From: a virus | Taxonomy: Duplodnaviria; Heunggongvirae; Uroviricota; Caudoviricetes | Virus record (IMG/VR): IMGVR_UViG_2609460344_000010 | Span: 1 to 5,435 of that record | Length of the DNA stretch: 5,435 bases | Strand: one strand, 5' to 3' | Shown: positions 1 to 5,435 of the stretch, piece after piece | Numbering within the stretch: the first letter of the stretch is position 1 | Layout: every line of letters begins with the position of its first letter | Made by a program: the position numbers and the translations under genes | The notes under the pieces: generated by a model | What the model was told of the DNA's origin: nothing | What the model saw: the letters and a program-made list of their open reading frames with translations, nothing else | Database searches by the model: none

Positions 1-45
1 GTTAAATGGAGCATGGGTGACGGCTGCAAGTATATAATGATATTC

Positions 46-70
46 AGAAGGCCTTCCGGCCTTCTTTATT
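46..70. terminator. Putative intrinsic terminator hairpin at the end of the tail operon, possibly bidirectional
   Basis: Perfect 8-bp stem AGAAGGCC (46..53) / GGCCTTCT (58..65) with loop TTCC, followed on the plus strand by TTATT. It sits immediately downstream of the chaperone stop codon (71..69) on the minus strand, where the trailing U-tract is weaker (GAAUAUCAUUAUAUA). Confidence 0.5.
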
Positions 71-590
71 ACTGTGGCTGCTCAGGCCATTTAATGGCGT
101 TAAATTCAGCTTCTGTTTTAATGGCGGGCAGTTCCATTTTCTTCACCTGACTGATGTATGCCATCCATTGGGTAAGTGCTGCTCTGTCTTCATCGCTGAT
201 GGTGTCCAGTTGTAGCTCCGTTCTCCAGTCATTAATTTTTTCATATGCCTGATTAAGATATGACTGGCGCAGTGCTTCCGCTTTTTTGGTATAGTTAACC
301 GGGAGTTGTGAGATGACACCATTATCAAACTTCCAGTTTCCTGAAATATCAGTACCTTCAGGTAATTCGTCTGTCTCAACAACGGAAAAACCCGCAGGAT
401 ACAGCGCCGAAGCATCCTGTGATATTGAGCAGATAACACCGCTGTCAGGTGTTATGCAAAGTTTATATTTTTTGGTGAATAATGGCAGGGATTCGTAGAA
501 ATCCTTACCATCTTCACTCTGGAAATACTGAACATTATTACCATATGGCATATTTTCAGGATAATAACGGGTTATATTTTTTAGTTCCAT
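69..590 (-). CDS. Tail fiber assembly chaperone (P2 gpG / Mu U / lambda Tfa family)
   Basis: 173-aa ORF with ATG at 590..588, preceded by GGAGG with a 5-nt spacer. Size, position directly downstream of the fiber gene, and motifs (SEDGKDFYE, ISQDASALYPAGFSVVE, C-terminal ...WPEQPQ) match my recollection of the P2 gpG family. Confidence 0.8.
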   Translation of the reverse strand: MELKNITRYYPENMPYGNNVQYFQSEDGKDFYESLPLFTKKYKLCITPDSGVICSISQDASALYPAGFSVVETDELPEGTDISGNWKFDNGVISQLPVNYTKKAEALRQSYLNQAYEKINDWRTELQLDTISDEDRAALTQWMAYISQVKKMELPAIKTEAEFNAIKWPEQPQ

Positions 591-641
591 AAAATCCTCC
601 TGGAAATAAATCTGTTTTAAAATATATTATTTACTGACTAT

Positions 642-1532
642 TTATAACTGAGATACCGTAATCCATGTACCTCCGACTAATTTTTGCAGGGGTCTGAATG
701 CTATAAAATCGTTTGAAGCATCAACTTTACTGTCAATCTGCAGGCCTGCCATAACATTACCGTACGCAGAGTAATATGCCCCACCGTACATTACCTGCCT
801 GTTCTCTGCTCCCAGCCTGATATCCTGGATATATCGGGAATCCGCATCCTGCTGTGTTATACCAGAAGTGATGTTTATGTCCTGCGTCCCGTCAAAGGGA
901 ACCCCATTAATATTTCTTGGGGTGGCGAGTCTATTCGCGGCAACGGCGGTGCCGTCCGATGGCAGAGCATTCGCCGCCCTGTTTACCGTTTCCCGTAAAC
1001 CGACGTTATCGATAAAAGCCCCTTTATCCGGAATGTCTGCGCCGTTCTGCTCCCTGCGCAGGTAACGGTTATCACCTTCGCTTTTGCTGTAAACATCCAG
1101 ATTATTACGGGCGGTTCCCTTATTCTCCAGGTCGGCGAGATTCTGATCCTTCGCCAGGGCATTAACGTCAGCGGGACCAAGACTGTTTTTTGTGGCAAGC
1201 GTCCCCAGACCAAGATAACCACGGGCCAGACGCTGGGCCTCCGCACCGGCATCAGCAATTTCTTTCAGGTTATTTTTCCGGGAAAAGGCATTCGCAGCGA
1301 TAATGGCTTTAATGGACAGCGTAAGCTGGTTTAACTGCGCCTTATCCGGCTGAATACTGGCTTCAGCCAGAATATTCAGCAGTTCGGCCTGGAGAATATT
1401 CAGCCAGTCCTGACCAATCCAGCTGATACCTTTTTGTCCGTCACCTTCGGTAAACCAGGTGGTGGTATTACTCTGCGCCGGTGCCAGCGCAGGCATATTC
1501 GCCACGCCGGAATTATTATCAACATGAAACAT
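642..1532 (-). CDS. Tail fiber protein (compact; Mu S / P2 gpH-type C-terminal region)
   Basis: 296-aa ORF with ATG at 1532..1530, preceded by GAGGAG with an 8-nt spacer. A central GLRETVNRA motif (encoded 975..1001) and a C-terminal region (...[11 protein letters not shown]...[21 protein letters not shown]) resemble, from memory, the receptor-binding ends of P2 H / Mu S-type fibers. Followed directly by a Tfa-like chaperone gene. Confidence 0.8.
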
Positions 1533-2092
1533 TAAATAGTCTCCTCTTCATGGCTGTTTGCATACACGTAAATAAACGTCTGCCATGCAGGCTTATAACG
1601 GTTCAGAATACATTCCAGCGCACCGCCTTCATAAATACGCAGCGGCGTGAGAATATCATCCAGCACATTCATATTCCGGTAGCCGGTTTCACTGTTAATC
1701 GTGACAATACTGACCCACTGTGAATCCGGTGATGGCTGAATATCTATTTCATAACCAAACTCTGCCGCAAACCGGATATAAAATTCACGGTTAAGAGAGG
1801 GTTTCATCCGGTATTTATTCCCGGCATAACGCTGACGCTCCTGAATGGTTGCGCCGGTCATATCACATTCCGGTAACCCCAGATAACGCTCCCAGTCTTC
1901 CAGCAGCAGACGGGATGAATCAGGAAAACGTTCTGCCAGCATCTGGTTACCGGTCCAGGAAACACGCTCCGTGGAATGACTGAGGCCCAGGCACAAAGCC
2001 GCAAGAACGGATGACGGCCGCTTATCCCATGCCAGCCCGTCAGGCAGCAACTGCAACAGGGCGCGCTGATGCGGGGTCAGGGTTACAGCCAT
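1532..2092 (-). CDS. Baseplate/tail protein, P2 gpI / Mu gp48-like
   Basis: 186-aa ORF between the J-like gene and the tail fiber. ATG at 2092..2090 is preceded by AGGAG with a 7-nt spacer. Its start overlaps the J stop by 10 nt (ATGGCTGTAA), and its stop overlaps the fiber start (TAATG, sharing base 1532). Confidence 0.75.
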
Positions 2093-3168
2093 GTGATTTC
2101 TCCTACCGTCAGCAGCTCACTGTCTCCCGCCTGAACTGACGTCAGCGGACTGCGCACTTCAAAATCCTCCAGATTTTTCACCCCTGCCACCGCCCGCCAG
2201 AAAGACGACGGCAGAACCAGACCGCCGGGCCGGGATTCGTTATACAACAGGTCGGTCAGCGCCTGTTTTACGGCCGCCTGATTCTCCGGTGTTTTCGGGA
2301 TGATCCTGATGCTGAAGGGCACCGGCTTATTGGTCAGTTTAAACACGGTCACCGTCGGCCCCAGAGGCTGTCCGACAGGCTGGCCGGTCGCCGGATCATC
2401 ATGACTGCGGATATAATCCGCCACCCGCTGAACATCACCGTCACCGGGGAAAATGTCCGGGTTATTATCCTGAACAAACGTTACCCCCACGCTGCCCGCC
2501 TGCGGCCATTCCGGGCGGCACCATGCCCGCGTCACGCCCGGCACTTCACGCGCCCAGCGTTCAAAATCATACTGCGTGCCGCCGGACGGTGGATTCTGCA
2601 CCCGGAAAACCAGACGGGAAAGCAGCTCCGGCACGGTTTCCACATCCGCACCACCGGTGATCCCCGTTCCGGTCACCGTGGCCGTCTGGTTGATCCCCGC
2701 CTGCGGTGTGATAAATGTCAGTTTTGTCCCTGCCGGGGCATTCCCCGCACGACCGGCACTTTCGGCTTCCACACTGACATTCAGCGTACCGGCCTTACCG
2801 GTCAGGGAGGTGGTGATACGGTAAACAACACCATCGCTTCGCTGAAGGAGTACGCCTTCCGTGATCCCTGCATCCGTGGTCAGCATCAGTTGTACCGGTC
2901 CGTCAGCGCGGGAAGCCGGTTTACGGATGACACCCCAGAATGCGCAGTGTTTCAGCAGTTCGGCTTCATCGGCTTCGGTCGGGATGATCTGACGCGCAAT
3001 CCAGGCCAGATGCTCATGCTCCTGAGCAGATAACCCTGCCTGAGCGTAAGCAATGGCATTCAGGGTGGTTTCATTCACGCCCGGCTGCGAACCGGGCAGG
3101 CGCTGGCTGATATCCTGTTGTGTCTGTGTGATCAGTTGCGCCAGTGGTAAGGGCTGATAAGGCATCAT
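2083..3168 (-). CDS. Baseplate J-like protein (Mu gp47 / P2 gpJ family)
   Basis: 361-aa ORF in the canonical position between the W-like and I-like genes. ATG at 3168..3166 overlaps the upstream stop as ATGA. A G-rich Shine-Dalgarno (AAGGGGGA) lies immediately upstream. Confidence 0.8.
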   Translation of the reverse strand: MMPYQPLPLAQLITQTQQDISQRLPGSQPGVNETTLNAIAYAQAGLSAQEHEHLAWIARQIIPTEADEAELLKHCAFWGVIRKPASRADGPVQLMLTTDAGITEGVLLQRSDGVVYRITTSLTGKAGTLNVSVEAESAGRAGNAPAGTKLTFITPQAGINQTATVTGTGITGGADVETVPELLSRLVFRVQNPPSGGTQYDFERWAREVPGVTRAWCRPEWPQAGSVGVTFVQDNNPDIFPGDGDVQRVADYIRSHDDPATGQPVGQPLGPTVTVFKLTNKPVPFSIRIIPKTPENQAAVKQALTDLLYNESRPGGLVLPSSFWRAVAGVKNLEDFEVRSPLTSVQAGDSELLTVGEITWL

Positions 3169-3602
3169 TCCCCCTTCATATCAGCATAAAAAATCATCGG
3201 ATGTCTGCTTCCGTCCGGCAGGGTGATTTTCACGGAAAGCGAAAGGCGAGCATGCCCCACACGCATGGCATGACATACCACGGATGTGGCAGCACCGCTT
3301 TTATGCAGCCACGCCAGCGCTTCATCAGCATAGGCCTGTGCACGGCTGACCACGGAGGACAGCGTCTTTTCACGGCTTAACAGCCAGAGACGGGAGCCAA
3401 CGGGGCGCTCCCGGAAACTGTCTCCCCACCATCCCCGACGGTCACGGGTGCCGTCAGGGATTTCATCGGAATCCAGCGCCCGCCTGTCCGTAAACAGTGA
3501 AATAATGACCGCCGTCAGCAGACTGTCATCCGTCAGAAGATCTGCGCCGTTCAGTTGCAGGGAACCGCAACCCTGATCCCAGACGACAGCAATATCAGCC
3601 AT
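3165..3602 (-). CDS. Baseplate wedge protein, Mu gp46 / P2 gpW / T4 gp25-like
   Basis: The ORF track extends this ORF to 3746, but the plausible start is the ATG at 3602..3600, preceded by GGGAGGA with a 7-nt spacer. That start overlaps the spike stop (minus strand ATGGCTGA). Product is then 145 aa, typical for gpW/gp46. The stop overlaps the J-like start as ATGA. Confidence 0.75.
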   Translation of the reverse strand: MADIAVVWDQGCGSLQLNGADLLTDDSLLTAVIISLFTDRRALDSDEIPDGTRDRRGWWGDSFRERPVGSRLWLLSREKTLSSVVSRAQAYADEALAWLHKSGAATSVVCHAMRVGHARLSLSVKITLPDGSRHPMIFYADMKGE

Positions 3603-4103
3603 TCTCTGGTCCTCCCGTTTTGCTGCCTTCACCGTTATCCTGATGCACATGGCCGGAATAGGTGATCCCGGCAATAACGGCATCAGACATCGTGAACAGC
3701 CCGTCTGATTTACCTGTACCATCAAGCACGAAATTACCCTTAACATGCAGGTTTTTATCCACCGTCACATTGCCCGTAAAGGTGGCCTCCGGCGTATCCA
3801 CCCGCATCCCCTCATCGGCGTAAATCTCCAGCATTTTGCATGTCACAATAATGCGACCATCCTTTGTTAACCGTATCCGGTGCCCCTCATGGTGATACAC
3901 CCCCGTATCTCCGGCGGTAAGTCCGGTCGGGCGGCTGCGCCGGTCTTCCACCACAAGCACCACAGCCTGATCCCGCTGTCCGCCAGACAGGCAAAAAAGG
4001 TTTCCGCACCCGGCAGGGGAACGCTGATCTGCCCGTACTGCTGGGGACGCTCCACATCATCAAAGGTTTCGCCGTCCATGCCGGTGAGCTGCACATTCTG
4101 CAT
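3595..4103 (-). pseudogene. Baseplate spike, Mu gp45 / P2 gpV-like, interrupted by a frame change; either a true frameshift or a homopolymer sequencing error
   Basis: Two adjacent minus-strand ORFs in different frames (3867..4103 and 3595..3963) together read as one spike-like protein: ...YGQISVPLPGAETFF in the first, then CLSGGQRDQAVVLVVEDRRSRP... in the second. The frames switch at the A6 run 3993..3998 (T6 on the coding strand). Adding one T there fuses them into a protein of about 169 aa. Confidence 0.6.
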
Positions 4104-4157
4104 TTTCAGCGCGTCATTGTGCCGGTCAGAACACCACGCCCAAACAACAGACGAACA

Positions 4158-4173
4158 CCCCGCATCACCGGGG
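4158..4173 (-). other. Short GC hairpin (CCCCG, 6-nt loop, CGGGG) in the hub-spike spacer; possible attenuator or RNA structure
   Basis: Perfect 5-bp all-GC inverted repeat 4158..4162 / 4169..4173. On the minus-strand transcript it is followed by a U-rich stretch (UGUUCGUCUGUUGUUUG, 4157..4141). Confidence 0.3.
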
Positions 4174-4196
4174 CAAGAAGGCGGCTGAACACTTCG

Positions 4197-5318
4197 TCAT
4201 TCATCATTGAATTTAATCCCCTGTTTTTTCATCTGCTGGCGAATAAAGGCATCAACATCGTCACCGGAACCACCCCGGCCCTTACTGTCCGGCTCTGCCG
4301 GAACGATAAAGCCGTCACGCGGTGCCAGTACCAGCCGGGTGACTTCCCCGTTATGTTCATCAAGTAAAAACTCCACCTGACAGACCAGCAGTTCAGTCTG
4401 TTCTATACCGAAACGCAGGGCTGAAACACCGGTCAGCAGATTGACATCCCATAACCGGCCATCATCCCGGAACCAGCCACGCACGGTGGCAGAAAACCGT
4501 TCTGAACGGGCAATCGCACGGCGCATTTCACGCAGGGCACGCTGCCGTGCACCGGTGGTGTCTGTCTGTTGATCGGCGAGGATGATTTTCGGCCGGTAAC
4601 GGCCGATCGCACTCACTGTCACGCCCACAGGTGCGGCCAGCGGGCGGCGGTCACTGCATCCCCGCATGCCACCACCACGCCCGTGCCCCCGGACACGGTA
4701 TTCACTGTATCGTCCTCGCCAGTCCACGTTGTGATCCAAATCCAGCAGATTATCTCCCAGCACCAGTCTGTCCGTCTGCTGGCTTCCTGCCTGGGTGAAC
4801 ACCAGATCGCCGTCAGCATTACTGGTCACCAGCACCCCGCGATGCCGGGCAGCACGTGTCAGCGCATCTGCCACGGTTTCTGAGTTTTCCAGTGTGAAGG
4901 TGGAAAAGGGCCGGGCTGCCGTTGCATCATTTACCTGCCAGCGCACCGTGACCCCGAACGGAGCACACAAATCTGAAGCAATGTGCTCCAGCGTGCGGTT
5001 CCTCCACTGGCTGCCCGGATGAATGGCTGAACAGTCCACCAGGTCACCGGTTTTATCCCGTCCGCTGAGCGTGATCTGAAAACGCGTGGCGCTGATGCGC
5101 TGCCGGACCTGATCCAGCCAGCCAGTGATCACAGGCTGACCGTCAATGCGCAATTCCAGAGACTGACCGGCACGGACGGATGACGGAAGGCGTACACCGG
5201 GCATCATTACCCCCAGTTCAAAGGAGCCCGCCAGATGTTCAAGAGAGCGACGAACACTCACCGTCAGCCAGCCGGAAAAAATCTCACCGCCCAGATACAG
5301 TTCAACCCTGCTGCTCAC
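4197..5318 (-). CDS. Baseplate hub protein, Mu gp44 (P) / P2 gpD-like
   Basis: 373-aa ORF at the expected position and size for the hub gene of Mu-type baseplate clusters. Start is GTG at 5318..5316, preceded by GGAGG (5329..5325) with a 6-nt spacer. The start lies 17 nt inside the 3' end of the upstream ORF. Confidence 0.8.
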
Positions 5319-5435
5319 TAATCACCTCCACTGAATGGCCTCCGGGAATGAACAGCGGATCAACAATACCGTTACGGCGCACAAAGCGTTGCCAGCCGGT
5401 ACTGTTCCCGGTGGCACGGTACAGGGTCACCAGTG
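5302..5435 (-). CDS. 3' end of an upstream tail gene, truncated by the window edge; possibly DNA circularisation protein N/gp43-like, by synteny only
   Basis: Hand translation of the minus strand from 5433 gives a stop-free frame ([43 protein letters not shown]) ending at TGA 5304..5302, with enterobacterial-type codon choice. Not in the ORF track because it has no start inside the window. Identity is inferred only from its position upstream of the hub gene. Confidence 0.45.
5325..5329 (-). promoter_or_regulatory. Shine-Dalgarno sequence (GGAGG) for the hub gene
   Basis: Minus strand reads GGAGGTGATTAGTG, with GTG as the start codon at 5318..5316. Confidence 0.6.

What the first reader, a model, noticed from the sequence alone, without database searches (positions are those of the whole stretch)
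69..900. AT-richer host-range cassette (fiber C-terminal domain plus chaperone) appended to a GC-richer baseplate operon
Spot counts of 60-nt samples give about 40% GC inside the chaperone gene (301..360) against about 57% in the J-like gene (2401..2460). The 3' end of the fiber gene is intermediate. A compositional break confined to the receptor-binding end of the fiber and its chaperone is the signature of horizontally exchanged host-specificity modules in P2/Mu/lambda-type phages. It suggests this element recently acquired a new receptor specificity from a lower-GC donor.
Basis: partly seen in the sequence, partly recalled or inferred. Interest (0 to 1): 0.45.

Follow-up and report, generated by a model that had tools for sequence, protein, structure and literature searches.

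The report
Invertible phage tail-fibre host-range switch
The AT-rich stretch is real, but it is three-quarters of a well-known kind of flip-flop DNA segment (like the G segment of phage Mu) that lets a Mu-like prophage of E. coli swap the tip of its tail fibre. It is not evidence that a new receptor specificity was recently imported.

Summary
The GC drop is real. Window 69-900 is 41% GC against 57% for the rest. However, GC falls in steps, at about 1820 and about 740, and is not one break at the fibre tip. The window is a whole 5.4-kb contig of an Sp18-like, Mu-type prophage. It carries baseplate genes gp44-gp48, a 296-aa fibre and a Tfa chaperone, all on the minus strand. A 26-bp site at 990-1015 differs from Mu gixL at 4 positions. 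Full-length relatives have a second, inverted copy about 1.31 kb away and a recombinase 70% identical to Mu Gin next to it. Relatives encoding the identical Tfa protein occur in both orientations. The flip replaces the last ~70 residues of the fibre with an alternative tip, whose last 11 codons are at window 1-36 on the plus strand. Different tip/tfa cassettes sit on the same backbone, so module exchange is real. Mu, Sp18 and phage 186 show the same low-GC tip-plus-tfa signature, so "recent import from a low-GC donor" is unsupported. One oddity: the segment carries only one tfa, so the flipped state makes a fibre with no co-transcribed chaperone. Overall this is a new member of a known kind, of modest interest.

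The parts
1..36 (+). Last 11 codons and stop of the alternative, silent fibre tip cassette (tip B, ...LNGAWVTAASI*). The rest lies beyond the contig end.
   Evidence: Relatives L001 and L002 continue this frame. In the flipped state L002 it is the C-terminus of a 293-aa fibre.
46..65 (.). Perfect palindromic hairpin between the convergent tfa and tip B. It looks like a terminator, with the T-run on the plus (tip B) side.
   Evidence: Terminator scan. Hairpins occupy the same position in the other cassette families.
69..590 (-). tfa: tail-fibre assembly protein, 173 aa, the only chaperone gene in the segment.
   Evidence: PF02413, E 1.7e-19. Mu gpU structure 5yvq_B, E 2e-15. The identical protein is found in both orientations relative to the fibre gene.
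591..641 (-). AT-rich spacer (GC 0.22) ending in a GGAGG ribosome-binding site before tfa. It is also a junction for module exchange.
   Evidence: The spacer sequence is not conserved between cassette families.
642..861 (-). Tip A: the unique distal ~72 residues of the fibre (aa 225-296), the receptor-binding tip expressed in this orientation.
   Evidence: Homologous to the Mu S tip, residues 435-502 of 5yvq_A. Best phage hits are Mu-like Yersinia phages and P2-like gpH at 45-47%. Homology to most E. coli relatives stops at 852-880.
862..1003 (-). Proximal inverted repeat inside the invertible segment (fibre aa 177-224, ...[10 protein letters not shown]). Its partner lies next to the invertase in relatives.
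   Evidence: Inverted repeats of 86 nt at 90% and 50 nt at 84% in L001 and L002. Alignment; self-match.
990..1015 (-). gix-like 26-bp crossover site TTATCGATAACG-TC-GGTTTACGGGAA. The central dinucleotide TC is at 1002-1003.
   Evidence: One match in the window and none in 200 shuffles. It differs from Mu gixL at 4 of 26 positions. Every full-length relative has exactly two such sites, in inverted orientation. The core dinucleotide co-varies: TC/TC here and in Mu, TT/TT in Sp18.
1004..1532 (-). Constant part of the fibre gene (Sc, aa 1-176), which attaches the fibre to the baseplate.
   Evidence: Residues 1-198 match Mu S 1-191, E 5e-51. tblastn to Mu S ends near the annotated G-segment boundary.
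1532..2092 (-). gp48/YmfQ baseplate wedge protein. Its 3' half (1532 to about 1820) already has lowered GC.
   Evidence: PF10076. GC step at about 1820. In Mu, gp48 carries the fibre-docking loop (PMC11915804).
2083..5318 (-). GC-rich Mu-type baseplate genes: gp47/J 2083-3165, gp46 3165-3602, gp45 3595-4209 (frameshifted) and gp44 4197-5318.
   Evidence: Pfam hits. Gene calls on the same contig. gp45 frameshifts.

Best explanation
Window 1-1003 is about three-quarters of a Mu G-segment-type invertible DNA segment, roughly 1.31 kb between crossover cores, in an Sp18-like Mu-type prophage. A Gin-family serine invertase is encoded just beyond the contig end in relatives. It would cut at the TC core of the 26-bp site in the fibre gene (1002-1003) and at an inverted partner site, and flip everything between them. 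In the orientation caught in this contig, the constant fibre part (aa 1-176) is fused to repeat-encoded residues 177-224 and tip A (aa 225-296), and is followed by tfa. After inversion the same constant part is fused to tip B, giving a 293-aa fibre, and tfa faces the wrong way. The result is two receptor specificities from one prophage. The low GC belongs to tip A, the spacer and tfa. This is the long-standing composition of the tip/tfa gene pool shared by Mu-, P1- and P2-type phages. These modules are swapped between phages by recombination at conserved motifs such as the [10 protein letters not shown] patch. Shown here: the site, its partner, the invertase homologue, both orientations, in-frame alternative tips, cassette exchange, and the shared composition. 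Inferred: that Gin catalyses the flips, that the host range changes, and that the switch still works in this particular genome.
For: Relatives L001 and L002 share identical flanking proteins but have tfa and the fibre tip inverted, giving fibres of 296 and 293 aa. The exact Tfa protein of the window occurs co-directional with the fibre gene (L012, L019) and inverted (L010, L016, L017). In E. coli complete genomes, the query in the window's orientation covers at least 80% in 5 genomes and the flipped query in 20. Of 13 single-locus genomes cross-referenced between searches are as in the window and 11 are flipped. The site at 990-1015 is unique in the window, with 0 of 200 shuffles matching, and differs from Mu gixL at 4 of 26 positions. 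Every complete locus, Mu included, has exactly two such sites in inverted orientation. Core dinucleotides match within a locus and differ between families, TC/TC versus TT/TT. In L019 and L013 compared with L010, L016 and L017, the repeat polymorphisms travel with the tips, which places the crossover in the 19 nt around the core. The adjacent 190-aa recombinase has Resolvase and HTH_7 domains and is 136/193 identical to Mu Gin, with the GYxRVSTxDQ serine motif. Gene order matches Mu: gp44-48, S, tfa, gin, com, mom. The tip in the chaperone-less position (the T4 tip type of Sp18, L024 and L025) is under purifying selection, with dN/dS 0.08-0.15 at dS 0.7-1.2. The composition is shared with Mu, Sp18 and 186. 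The same kind of system, with large imperfect repeats carrying 26-bp sites at their outer ends, was shown to flip in E. coli EC958 (PMC4134206).
Against: The window itself holds only one site. The contig ends 36 nt into tip B, so the partner site and the invertase are not seen in this genome. The outer half-site of the proximal site (TTATCGATAACG) deviates from Mu at 3 of 12 positions. gp45 carries two frameshifts, so this prophage may be defective. In some relatives gin is split (L005, L006). L001 and L002 differ by an exchange in the inner 23-bp patch, not at the gix site. Phage 186 carries a fossil "Mu-like inversion crossover site" without any invertase, so a site alone proves nothing. The Fis enhancer was not examined. 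Only one tfa is present, unlike every characterised system.
Confidence: 0.85

Rival explanations
1. One reading: a static mosaic cassette. The fibre tip and chaperone were recently acquired by horizontal transfer from a lower-GC donor, and the gix-like sequence is only a fossil recombination scar, as in phage 186. There is no programmed inversion in this element.
For: GC and GC3 are clearly lower. Alternative cassettes sit on the same backbone. Phage 186 has such a fossil site without an invertase. The window's own invertase is unseen and its gp45 is broken.
Against: Both orientations exist among close relatives with the identical Tfa, and the crossover maps to the site. An intact Gin homologue and a partner site with a matching core are adjacent in relatives that are 92-98% identical to the window over the matched region. 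The low-GC signature is shared by Mu, Sp18 and 186, so it is not specific to this element or recent. No low-GC donor was found.
Confidence: 0.08
2. The flips seen between relatives come from RecA-type homologous recombination between the ~150-bp inverted repeats, or between co-resident Mu-like prophages, and not from site-specific Gin action.
For: L001 and L002 differ by an exchange inside the repeat, in the 23-bp identical patch at window 866-888. The repeat variants stayed with the flanks. The whole operon shows pervasive homologous exchange. Some genomes hold up to 6-7 matching places.
Against: In L019 and L013 compared with L010, L016 and L017, all repeat polymorphisms move with the segment, so the crossover is in the 19 nt around the core. 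The core dinucleotides of the two sites co-vary between families. A conserved invertase gene sits next to the segment in every family examined. The longest identical patch in the repeats (32 nt) is not where the L001/L002 exchange occurred.
Confidence: 0.05
3. The low GC is not a trace of ancestry. It is maintained by function, for example amino-acid composition or a regulatory role for the AT-rich spacer and the tfa 5' end.
For: The trough is sharpest at the spacer and the tfa 5' end (451-740, GC 0.317). The pattern recurs in four phage lineages.
Against: The shift is strongest at synonymous third positions: GC3 is 0.39 in tfa against 0.55-0.64 in the baseplate genes. The spacer sequence is not conserved between cassette families. 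No promoter-like site exceeds chance. Tip B in the same segment is not AT-rich, at 0.51.
Confidence: 0.1

Closest known systems
Phage Mu G segment with Gin invertase (S/U versus S'/U')
   Same: Same gene order: gp44-48, fibre, tfa, invertase, com, mom. The crossover site differs from gixL at 4 of 26 positions, has the same TC core, and sits at the equivalent fibre position, around aa 177 here and about 170 in Mu. The recombinase is 70% identical to Gin. The fibre N-terminus and tip, and Tfa, are homologous to Mu S and U in structure 5yvq.
   Different: The segment is about 1.31 kb, not about 3.05 kb. The fibre is 296 aa and lacks the ~240-residue shaft of Mu S. About 150 bp of imperfect inverted repeat lies inside the segment, where Mu has 34 bp. 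Only ~70 residues are swapped. There is one tfa, not U plus U'.
Prophage Sp18 of E. coli O157:H7 Sakai (ECs_4989-4992: fibre, tfa, partial fibre, DNA invertase)
   Same: Same prophage family and the same single-tfa architecture. The backbone is 88-91% identical from about 852 onward. It is annotated as a Mu-like phage with a DNA invertase.
   Different: Different tips. The Tfa is 62% identical. The core dinucleotide is TT, not TC. In the reference genome it sits in the flipped state.
Invertible tail-fibre segments of E. coli EC958 prophages Phi1, Phi2 and Phi4, and the P1 C segment with Cin
   Same: 26-bp crossover sites with TC or TT cores sit at the outer ends of larger imperfect inverted repeats (36-508 bp) inside the fibre gene. 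Flipping was shown by long reads (PMC4134206). That P1 cix sites lie at the outer ends of 0.6-kb repeats is from my own recollection.
   Different: Those segments are 2-3 kb and are mirror images, with each tip followed by its own minor fibre or tfa gene.
Phage 186 fibre gene K and its tfa
   Same: The Tfa is 36% identical. A gix-like site is annotated inside the fibre gene. The same GC decline runs from baseplate to fibre C-part to tfa.
   Different: No invertase, no partner site and no alternative tip. The site is a fossil module boundary.

Membership tests
Gin/Cin/Pin/Hin-type (serine invertase) tail-fibre inversion system | A 26-bp crossover site (two imperfect 12-bp half-sites around a 2-bp core) inside the fibre gene at the constant/variable junction | tested here: met
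   Window 990-1015, minus strand. Unique, with 0 of 200 shuffles matching. Differs from Mu gixL at 4 of 26 positions.
Gin/Cin/Pin/Hin-type (serine invertase) tail-fibre inversion system | A second site in inverted orientation with the same central dinucleotide | tested here: met
   Met in relatives only: exactly two inverted sites per locus, with cores TC/TC here and TT/TT in Sp18. In the window itself the partner lies beyond the contig end.
Gin/Cin/Pin/Hin-type (serine invertase) tail-fibre inversion system | An adjacent serine recombinase of the DNA-invertase subfamily | tested here: met
   Relatives carry a 190-aa protein with Resolvase and HTH_7 domains, 136/193 identical to Mu Gin, with the catalytic serine motif. 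It cannot be seen in the window.
Gin/Cin/Pin/Hin-type (serine invertase) tail-fibre inversion system | Both orientations occur, with the exchange point at the site | tested here: met
   Both orientations. Linkage of repeat polymorphisms places the crossover in the 19 nt around the core. One pair, L001/L002, instead shows an exchange inside the repeat. Flipping within a single culture was not testable.
Gin/Cin/Pin/Hin-type (serine invertase) tail-fibre inversion system | Alternative C-terminal parts fused in frame to one constant N-terminal part | tested here: met
   Fibres of 296 and 293 aa share their N-terminal part (residues 1-218 aligned, 3 substitutions) and then diverge. All cassettes read in frame from the site.
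Gin/Cin/Pin/Hin-type (serine invertase) tail-fibre inversion system | A Fis-dependent recombinational enhancer in cis (in the 5' part of the invertase gene in Mu) | not tested
   Only a DNA alignment of the gin 5' ends was made: 49/60 and 40/60 identical in the first two 60-nt blocks. Fis sites were not mapped.
Gin/Cin/Pin/Hin-type (serine invertase) tail-fibre inversion system | Mirror-image content, with each alternative tip followed by its own assembly gene (U and U') | tested here: not met
   One tfa per segment in all four cassette families examined. Only 32 nt separate the tfa stop from the tip B stop. This is typical content and not a mechanistic requirement.
Tail-fibre assembly protein (Tfa, PF02413; Mu gpU) | Sequence membership and a position directly downstream of the fibre gene | tested here: met
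   PF02413 at 70.7 bits against a cut-off of 22.1. 5yvq_B at E 2e-15. The gene starts 51 nt after the fibre stop.
Mu S-type tail fibre | A baseplate-binding N-terminal domain and a C-terminal tip homologous to Mu S | tested here: met
   Residues 1-198 match S 1-191 and residues 229-294 match S 435-502. The central shaft of S is absent.
Recently transferred compositional island | A composition that is anomalous for this element only and is not shared by the equivalent modules of related phages, with a plausible donor of matching composition | tested here: not met
   The same low GC is seen in Mu G, the Sp18 cassette and 186 K/tfa. No lower-GC donor was found.

The most novel reading that the evidence does not exclude
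This prophage family runs an asymmetric, minimal inversion switch. One chaperone gene sits between two tips, so one state makes fibre tip A with Tfa (in Mu, Tfa stays on the fibre and binds the host surface) and the other state makes a naked tip B with no co-transcribed chaperone. Either tip B is a member of the Mu/P1/P2 tip family that folds without Tfa, or tfa is expressed independently of orientation by an unrecognised route. Both would be new for this class of fibres. The tip in the chaperone-less position is under purifying selection (dN/dS about 0.1 for the T4 tip type), and the flipped state predominates in complete genomes, so the tfa-uncoupled state is unlikely to be a dead end.
Probability: 0.35. 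Interest if true: 0.5.

Novelty: new member of a known kind. Interest (0 to 1): 0.28.

Why it matters
It corrects the reading of the region. What looks like a freshly imported AT-rich island is a programmed host-range switch with a family-wide compositional signature. In practice, such segments cause contig breaks, alternative contigs and artefactual duplications in assemblies. They also make "fibre" annotations depend on orientation. Biologically, the single-chaperone layout, conserved across at least four cassette families in more than 230 E. coli genomes, offers a compact natural test of whether Mu/P2-type fibre tips always need a Tfa. It also defines small (~70 residue) swappable tips that could be useful for retargeting Mu-type tails.

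Tried and rejected
(1) A second invertase site at the inner end of the repeat (GTTCCCTTTGACGGGACGCAGGA, window 866-888) as an explanation for the L001/L002 difference. By eye it matches the gix half-site consensus poorly, so homologous exchange at the conserved [10 protein letters not shown] patch is more likely.
(2) An own promoter for tfa, which would make it independent of orientation. No sigma-70-like site lies on the tfa strand, hit counts are not above shuffles, and the spacers are not conserved between families.
(3) A search for a lower-GC donor or a wider species range. Two genome-contig scans gave nothing useful, only one odd "Vagococcus" contig at 43% identity.
(4) A structured RNA in the AT-rich trough. 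No Rfam family reached its gathering score.
(5) Finding the rest of the segment in the window's own genome. The window is the entire contig JNRD01000137.1.
(6) A single clean compositional boundary at the cassette edge. This was rejected by segmentation.
(7) Literature search for a description of the single-tfa layout. None was found in the searchable library.
Full report
WHAT THE WINDOW IS. The window is one complete 5,435-nt assembly contig, JNRD01000137.1 of GCA_000704505.1. All genes are on the minus strand. They form the distal end of a Mu-type late operon:
- gp44/P, 4197-5318
- gp45/V, 3595-4209
- gp46/W, 3165-3602
- gp47/J, 2083-3165
- gp48/YmfQ, 1532-2092
- a 296-aa fibre, 642-1532
- a 173-aa tail-fibre assembly protein (Tfa), 69-590
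These assignments rest. The closest E. coli relatives are Mu-like prophages of the Sp18 family, found in 232 of 5,426 complete genomes. The best match is 94.4% identical.

CHECK OF THE OBSERVATION. Window 69-900 is 0.413 GC against 0.566 for the rest, and no 832-nt window starting beyond 900 is as low. The difference is strongest at synonymous sites: GC3 is 0.39 in tfa against 0.55-0.64 in the baseplate genes. A/T-ending codons make up 63% in tip+tfa against 40% in the baseplate genes, p = 9e-10.

GC does not fall in one break at the fibre tip.
- The best single breakpoint is after about 1820, inside gp48. No shuffle out of 200 reached its likelihood.
- The BIC-best model has three levels: 1-740 at 0.396, 741-1820 at 0.496 and 1821-5435 at 0.584.
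- The deepest trough is 451-740 at 0.317. It covers the tfa 5' part, the spacer and the last codons of the fibre.
- The fibre stretch 861-1001 is GC-rich at 0.553.

WHAT IS REALLY THERE. Two complete E. coli genomes carry the same prophage with identical flanking proteins. In one, FORC_043 (L001), tfa follows a 296-aa fibre gene as in the window. In the other, NCCP 13905 (L002), the same Tfa protein is encoded on the opposite strand and the fibre is 293 aa. A 190-aa "recombinase family protein" lies directly beyond the segment in both. The two fibres share their N-terminal part (residues 1-218 aligned, 3 substitutions) and then diverge into two distantly related ~70-residue tips.

Looking up the window's exact Tfa protein found contigs in both states. 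L012 and L019 are co-directional with the fibre gene. L010, L016 and L017 are inverted.

The segment is bounded by about 150 nt of imperfect inverted repeat. The proximal arm is window 862-1010. At the outer edge of that arm lies a 26-bp site, window 990-1015 on the minus strand: TTATCGATAACG-TC-GGTTTACGGGAA. It is unique in the window and absent from 200 shuffles. It differs from Mu gixL (TTATCCAAAACC-TC-GGTTTACAGGAA) at 4 positions, and the following 14 nt also match Mu. The partner next to the recombinase is TTCCTGAAAACC-TC-GGTTTACGGGAA. Every complete locus fetched, Mu included, has exactly two such sites in inverted orientation. They are about 1.31 kb apart here, 3.05 kb in Mu and 1.37 kb in Sp18.

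The recombinase has Resolvase and HTH_7 domains. It is 136/193 identical to Mu Gin, including the N-terminal serine motif. The gene order beyond it (com, mom) is that of Mu.

Window 1-36 on the plus strand encodes the last 11 residues of the silent alternative tip. A palindromic hairpin at 46-65 separates it from the convergent tfa.

WHERE THE EXCHANGE HAPPENS. Polymorphisms in the repeats serve as markers. In L019 and L013, compared with L010, L016 and L017, every repeat variant stays linked to its tip whichever side it is on. The crossover therefore lies between the flank-specific outer half-site and the first polymorphism, a 19-nt interval centred on the TC core. The two cores are TC/TC in this family and in Mu, but TT/TT in Sp18. 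That co-variation is expected if the 2-bp overhangs must match for religation, as is established for serine invertases and as tabulated for EC958 prophages in PMC4134206.

One pair does not fit. L001 and L002 keep their repeat variants with the flanks. The exchange between them occurred in the inner 23-bp identical patch encoding [10 protein letters not shown], window 866-888. By eye that patch is a poor match to a gix half-site. I attribute this pair to homologous exchange between related prophages, which is rife in this operon.

HOW COMMON ARE THE TWO STATES. A query built in the window's orientation covers at least 80% in 5 complete E. coli genomes. The flipped query does so in 20. I cross-referenced strands between for 13 genomes with a single locus: 2 are as in the window and 11 are flipped. 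These are consensus assemblies. Flipping within one culture could not be tested here, but it has been shown by long reads for equivalent prophage segments (PMC4134206) and for a Mu-S-like fibre locus in a systematic screen (PMC9881135).

Calling this an "exchangeable host-specificity module" is right.
- About 204 of 236 backbone-positive genomes carry another cassette, the Sp18 type.
- Five tip types and several tfa alleles assort combinatorially across four cassette families.
- Partial matches break at about 76, 376, 545-611 and 852-880.
- Different parts have different nearest phage relatives. Fibre residues 1-198 match Mu S. Tip A matches Mu-like Yersinia phages and P2-like gpH. Tip B matches P1, SfMu S' and P2 H. 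Tfa matches the Sp18 type, then Rac-SA53, then 186.

"Recently acquired from a lower-GC donor" is not supported.
- The same decline from baseplate to tip to tfa is present in Mu (Sv 0.45, U 0.44, U' 0.43).
- It is present in Sp18 (0.44-0.48).
- It is present in phage 186, which has no invertase (V 0.60, W 0.56, J 0.54, I 0.51, fibre C-part 0.48, tfa 0.45, sheath 0.57).
- No lower-GC donor was found.
- Mosaicism is not special to the cassette. The whole baseplate operon alternates between blocks at 100% identity and blocks at 71-89% against different relatives.
The low GC is best read as the long-standing composition of a tip/tfa gene pool shared among enterobacterial myoviruses. The step at about 1820 suggests that the lower-GC "fibre module" starts in the half of gp48 which, in Mu, carries the fibre-docking loop (PMC11915804). 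That last point is inference.

MECHANISM, WITH STATUS OF EACH STEP.
1. The invertase binds the two 26-bp sites and exchanges strands at the core. This is inferred from homology, the site pair, the linkage data and the core co-variation. Enhancer and Fis dependence was not tested.
2. Inversion fuses the constant part either to repeat plus tip A or to repeat plus tip B, in frame. This is shown by the sequences.
3. Tip A is followed by tfa after a 51-nt AT-rich spacer with a GGAGG site. This is shown.
4. The two tips give different receptor specificity. This is inferred from Mu. Both tips are homologous to the Mu S and S' tips.
5. Whether the switch still works in this genome is unknown. The contig ends inside the segment, and gp45 carries two 1-nt deletions.

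WHAT DOES NOT FIT THE TEXTBOOK. In Mu, and in the EC958 prophages, each alternative tip has its own assembly gene. By my recollection the same holds for P1 and e14. Here, and in Sp18, STEC2018-607 and STEC2018-553, there is a single tfa. The tfa stop and the tip B stop are only about 30-50 nt apart. In the flipped state tfa points against the late operon.

The tip in the chaperone-less position is not decaying. Alleles of the T4 tip type, which occupies that position in Sp18, L024 and L025, show dN/dS of 0.08-0.15 at dS 0.7-1.2. The window family's own tip B (type T2) had too few differences for that test. Its frame is intact in the silent state in most loci, and L001 is an exception. The phage relatives of tip B (P2 H, P1 S, SfMu S') all come with a Tfa. 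I found no promoter-like site for tfa and no conserved spacer motif.

In Mu, Tfa remains part of the fibre (PMC11915804). That paper also cites a study reporting that Tfa proteins bind the host surface; I did not read that study. A state with Tfa and a state without it could therefore differ by more than the tip. This remains unexplained and is the only part of the locus with some novelty.

COMPARISON AND VERDICT. This is a Gin-type invertible tail-fibre segment in an Sp18-like Mu-type prophage, which is a known kind of system. Compared with Mu G it is miniature: 1.31 kb, ~70 residues swapped, and a 296-aa fibre lacking the shaft of Mu S. It has long internal repeats, as in EC958 Phi1 and Phi2 (and, from memory, the P1 C segment), and it has one chaperone. 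The membership features tested were met, except the mirror-image duplication of tfa. The enhancer was not tested. Novelty: a new member of a known kind. Interest is modest. The single-chaperone asymmetry is the one lead worth an experiment.

Noticed in passing
window 3595-4209 (about 3985 and about 4118): gp45 (baseplate spike) has two 1-nt deletions relative to L001 and Sp18, so three reading frames are needed to read it. Either this prophage copy is defective or the draft has errors. One deletion is in a CCC run and the other is not in a homopolymer.
   Followed up: partly
window 1532-5435: The whole baseplate operon is a patchwork. Blocks 100% identical to one relative alternate with blocks at 71-89%, and the pattern differs for each relative. 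This shows pervasive homologous exchange among Mu-like prophages.
   Followed up: partly
window about 1820 (inside gp48): The strongest GC step of the window lies here, not at the fibre tip. The lower-GC half of gp48 corresponds to the part that carries the fibre-docking loop in Mu.
   Followed up: partly
window 1 and 5435 (contig ends): The contig stops 36 nt into the silent tip cassette and inside gp43. The likely cause is repeat or heterogeneity-induced assembly breaks, for example another Mu-like prophage copy. The cause was not determined.
   Followed up: no
L001 5856-6037: The silent tip B cassette of FORC_043 has a frameshift relative to the expressed copy in L002. Other loci with the silent cassette keep it intact.
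   Followed up: partly
L005 and L006 9926-10497; L013 2612-3709: Some relatives have a split invertase gene (106 + 83 aa) and a large internal prophage deletion. Another has an IS element inserted in the fibre gene. These are decayed, probably locked, copies.
   Followed up: no
L011, L014/L015, L018 (FTW* assemblies): These contigs show palindromic duplications of the invertible segment, with two tfa copies or two fibre genes facing each other. They look like mis-joined reads of both orientations, the artefact warned about in PMC4134206.
   Followed up: no
L001 2896-4950 and equivalents in all relatives: A 684-aa protein with SASA (sialate O-acetylesterase-like) and DUF6645 domains sits between the invertase and com/mom, where Mu has no gene. 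It could be a moron or a tail-associated esterase.
   Followed up: no
L023 4463-4488 (phage 186 gene K): The public record annotates a "Mu-like inversion crossover site" inside the fibre gene of phage 186, which has no invertase. This shows that these sites persist as module boundaries.
   Followed up: partly
window 69-590 versus L021 4226-4747: Between this family and Sp18, the Tfa N-terminal half is more conserved (dN 0.17) than the C-terminal half (dN 0.39). From my recollection of the Mu work (North et al. 2019), the reverse pattern, a variable N-terminal and a conserved C-terminal domain, was described there.
   Followed up: no
L022 (NZ_JBQPOM010000054.1): A contig labelled Vagococcus sp. 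encodes a Tfa 43% identical to the window's. This is an unexpected host label, and possibly contamination.
   Followed up: no
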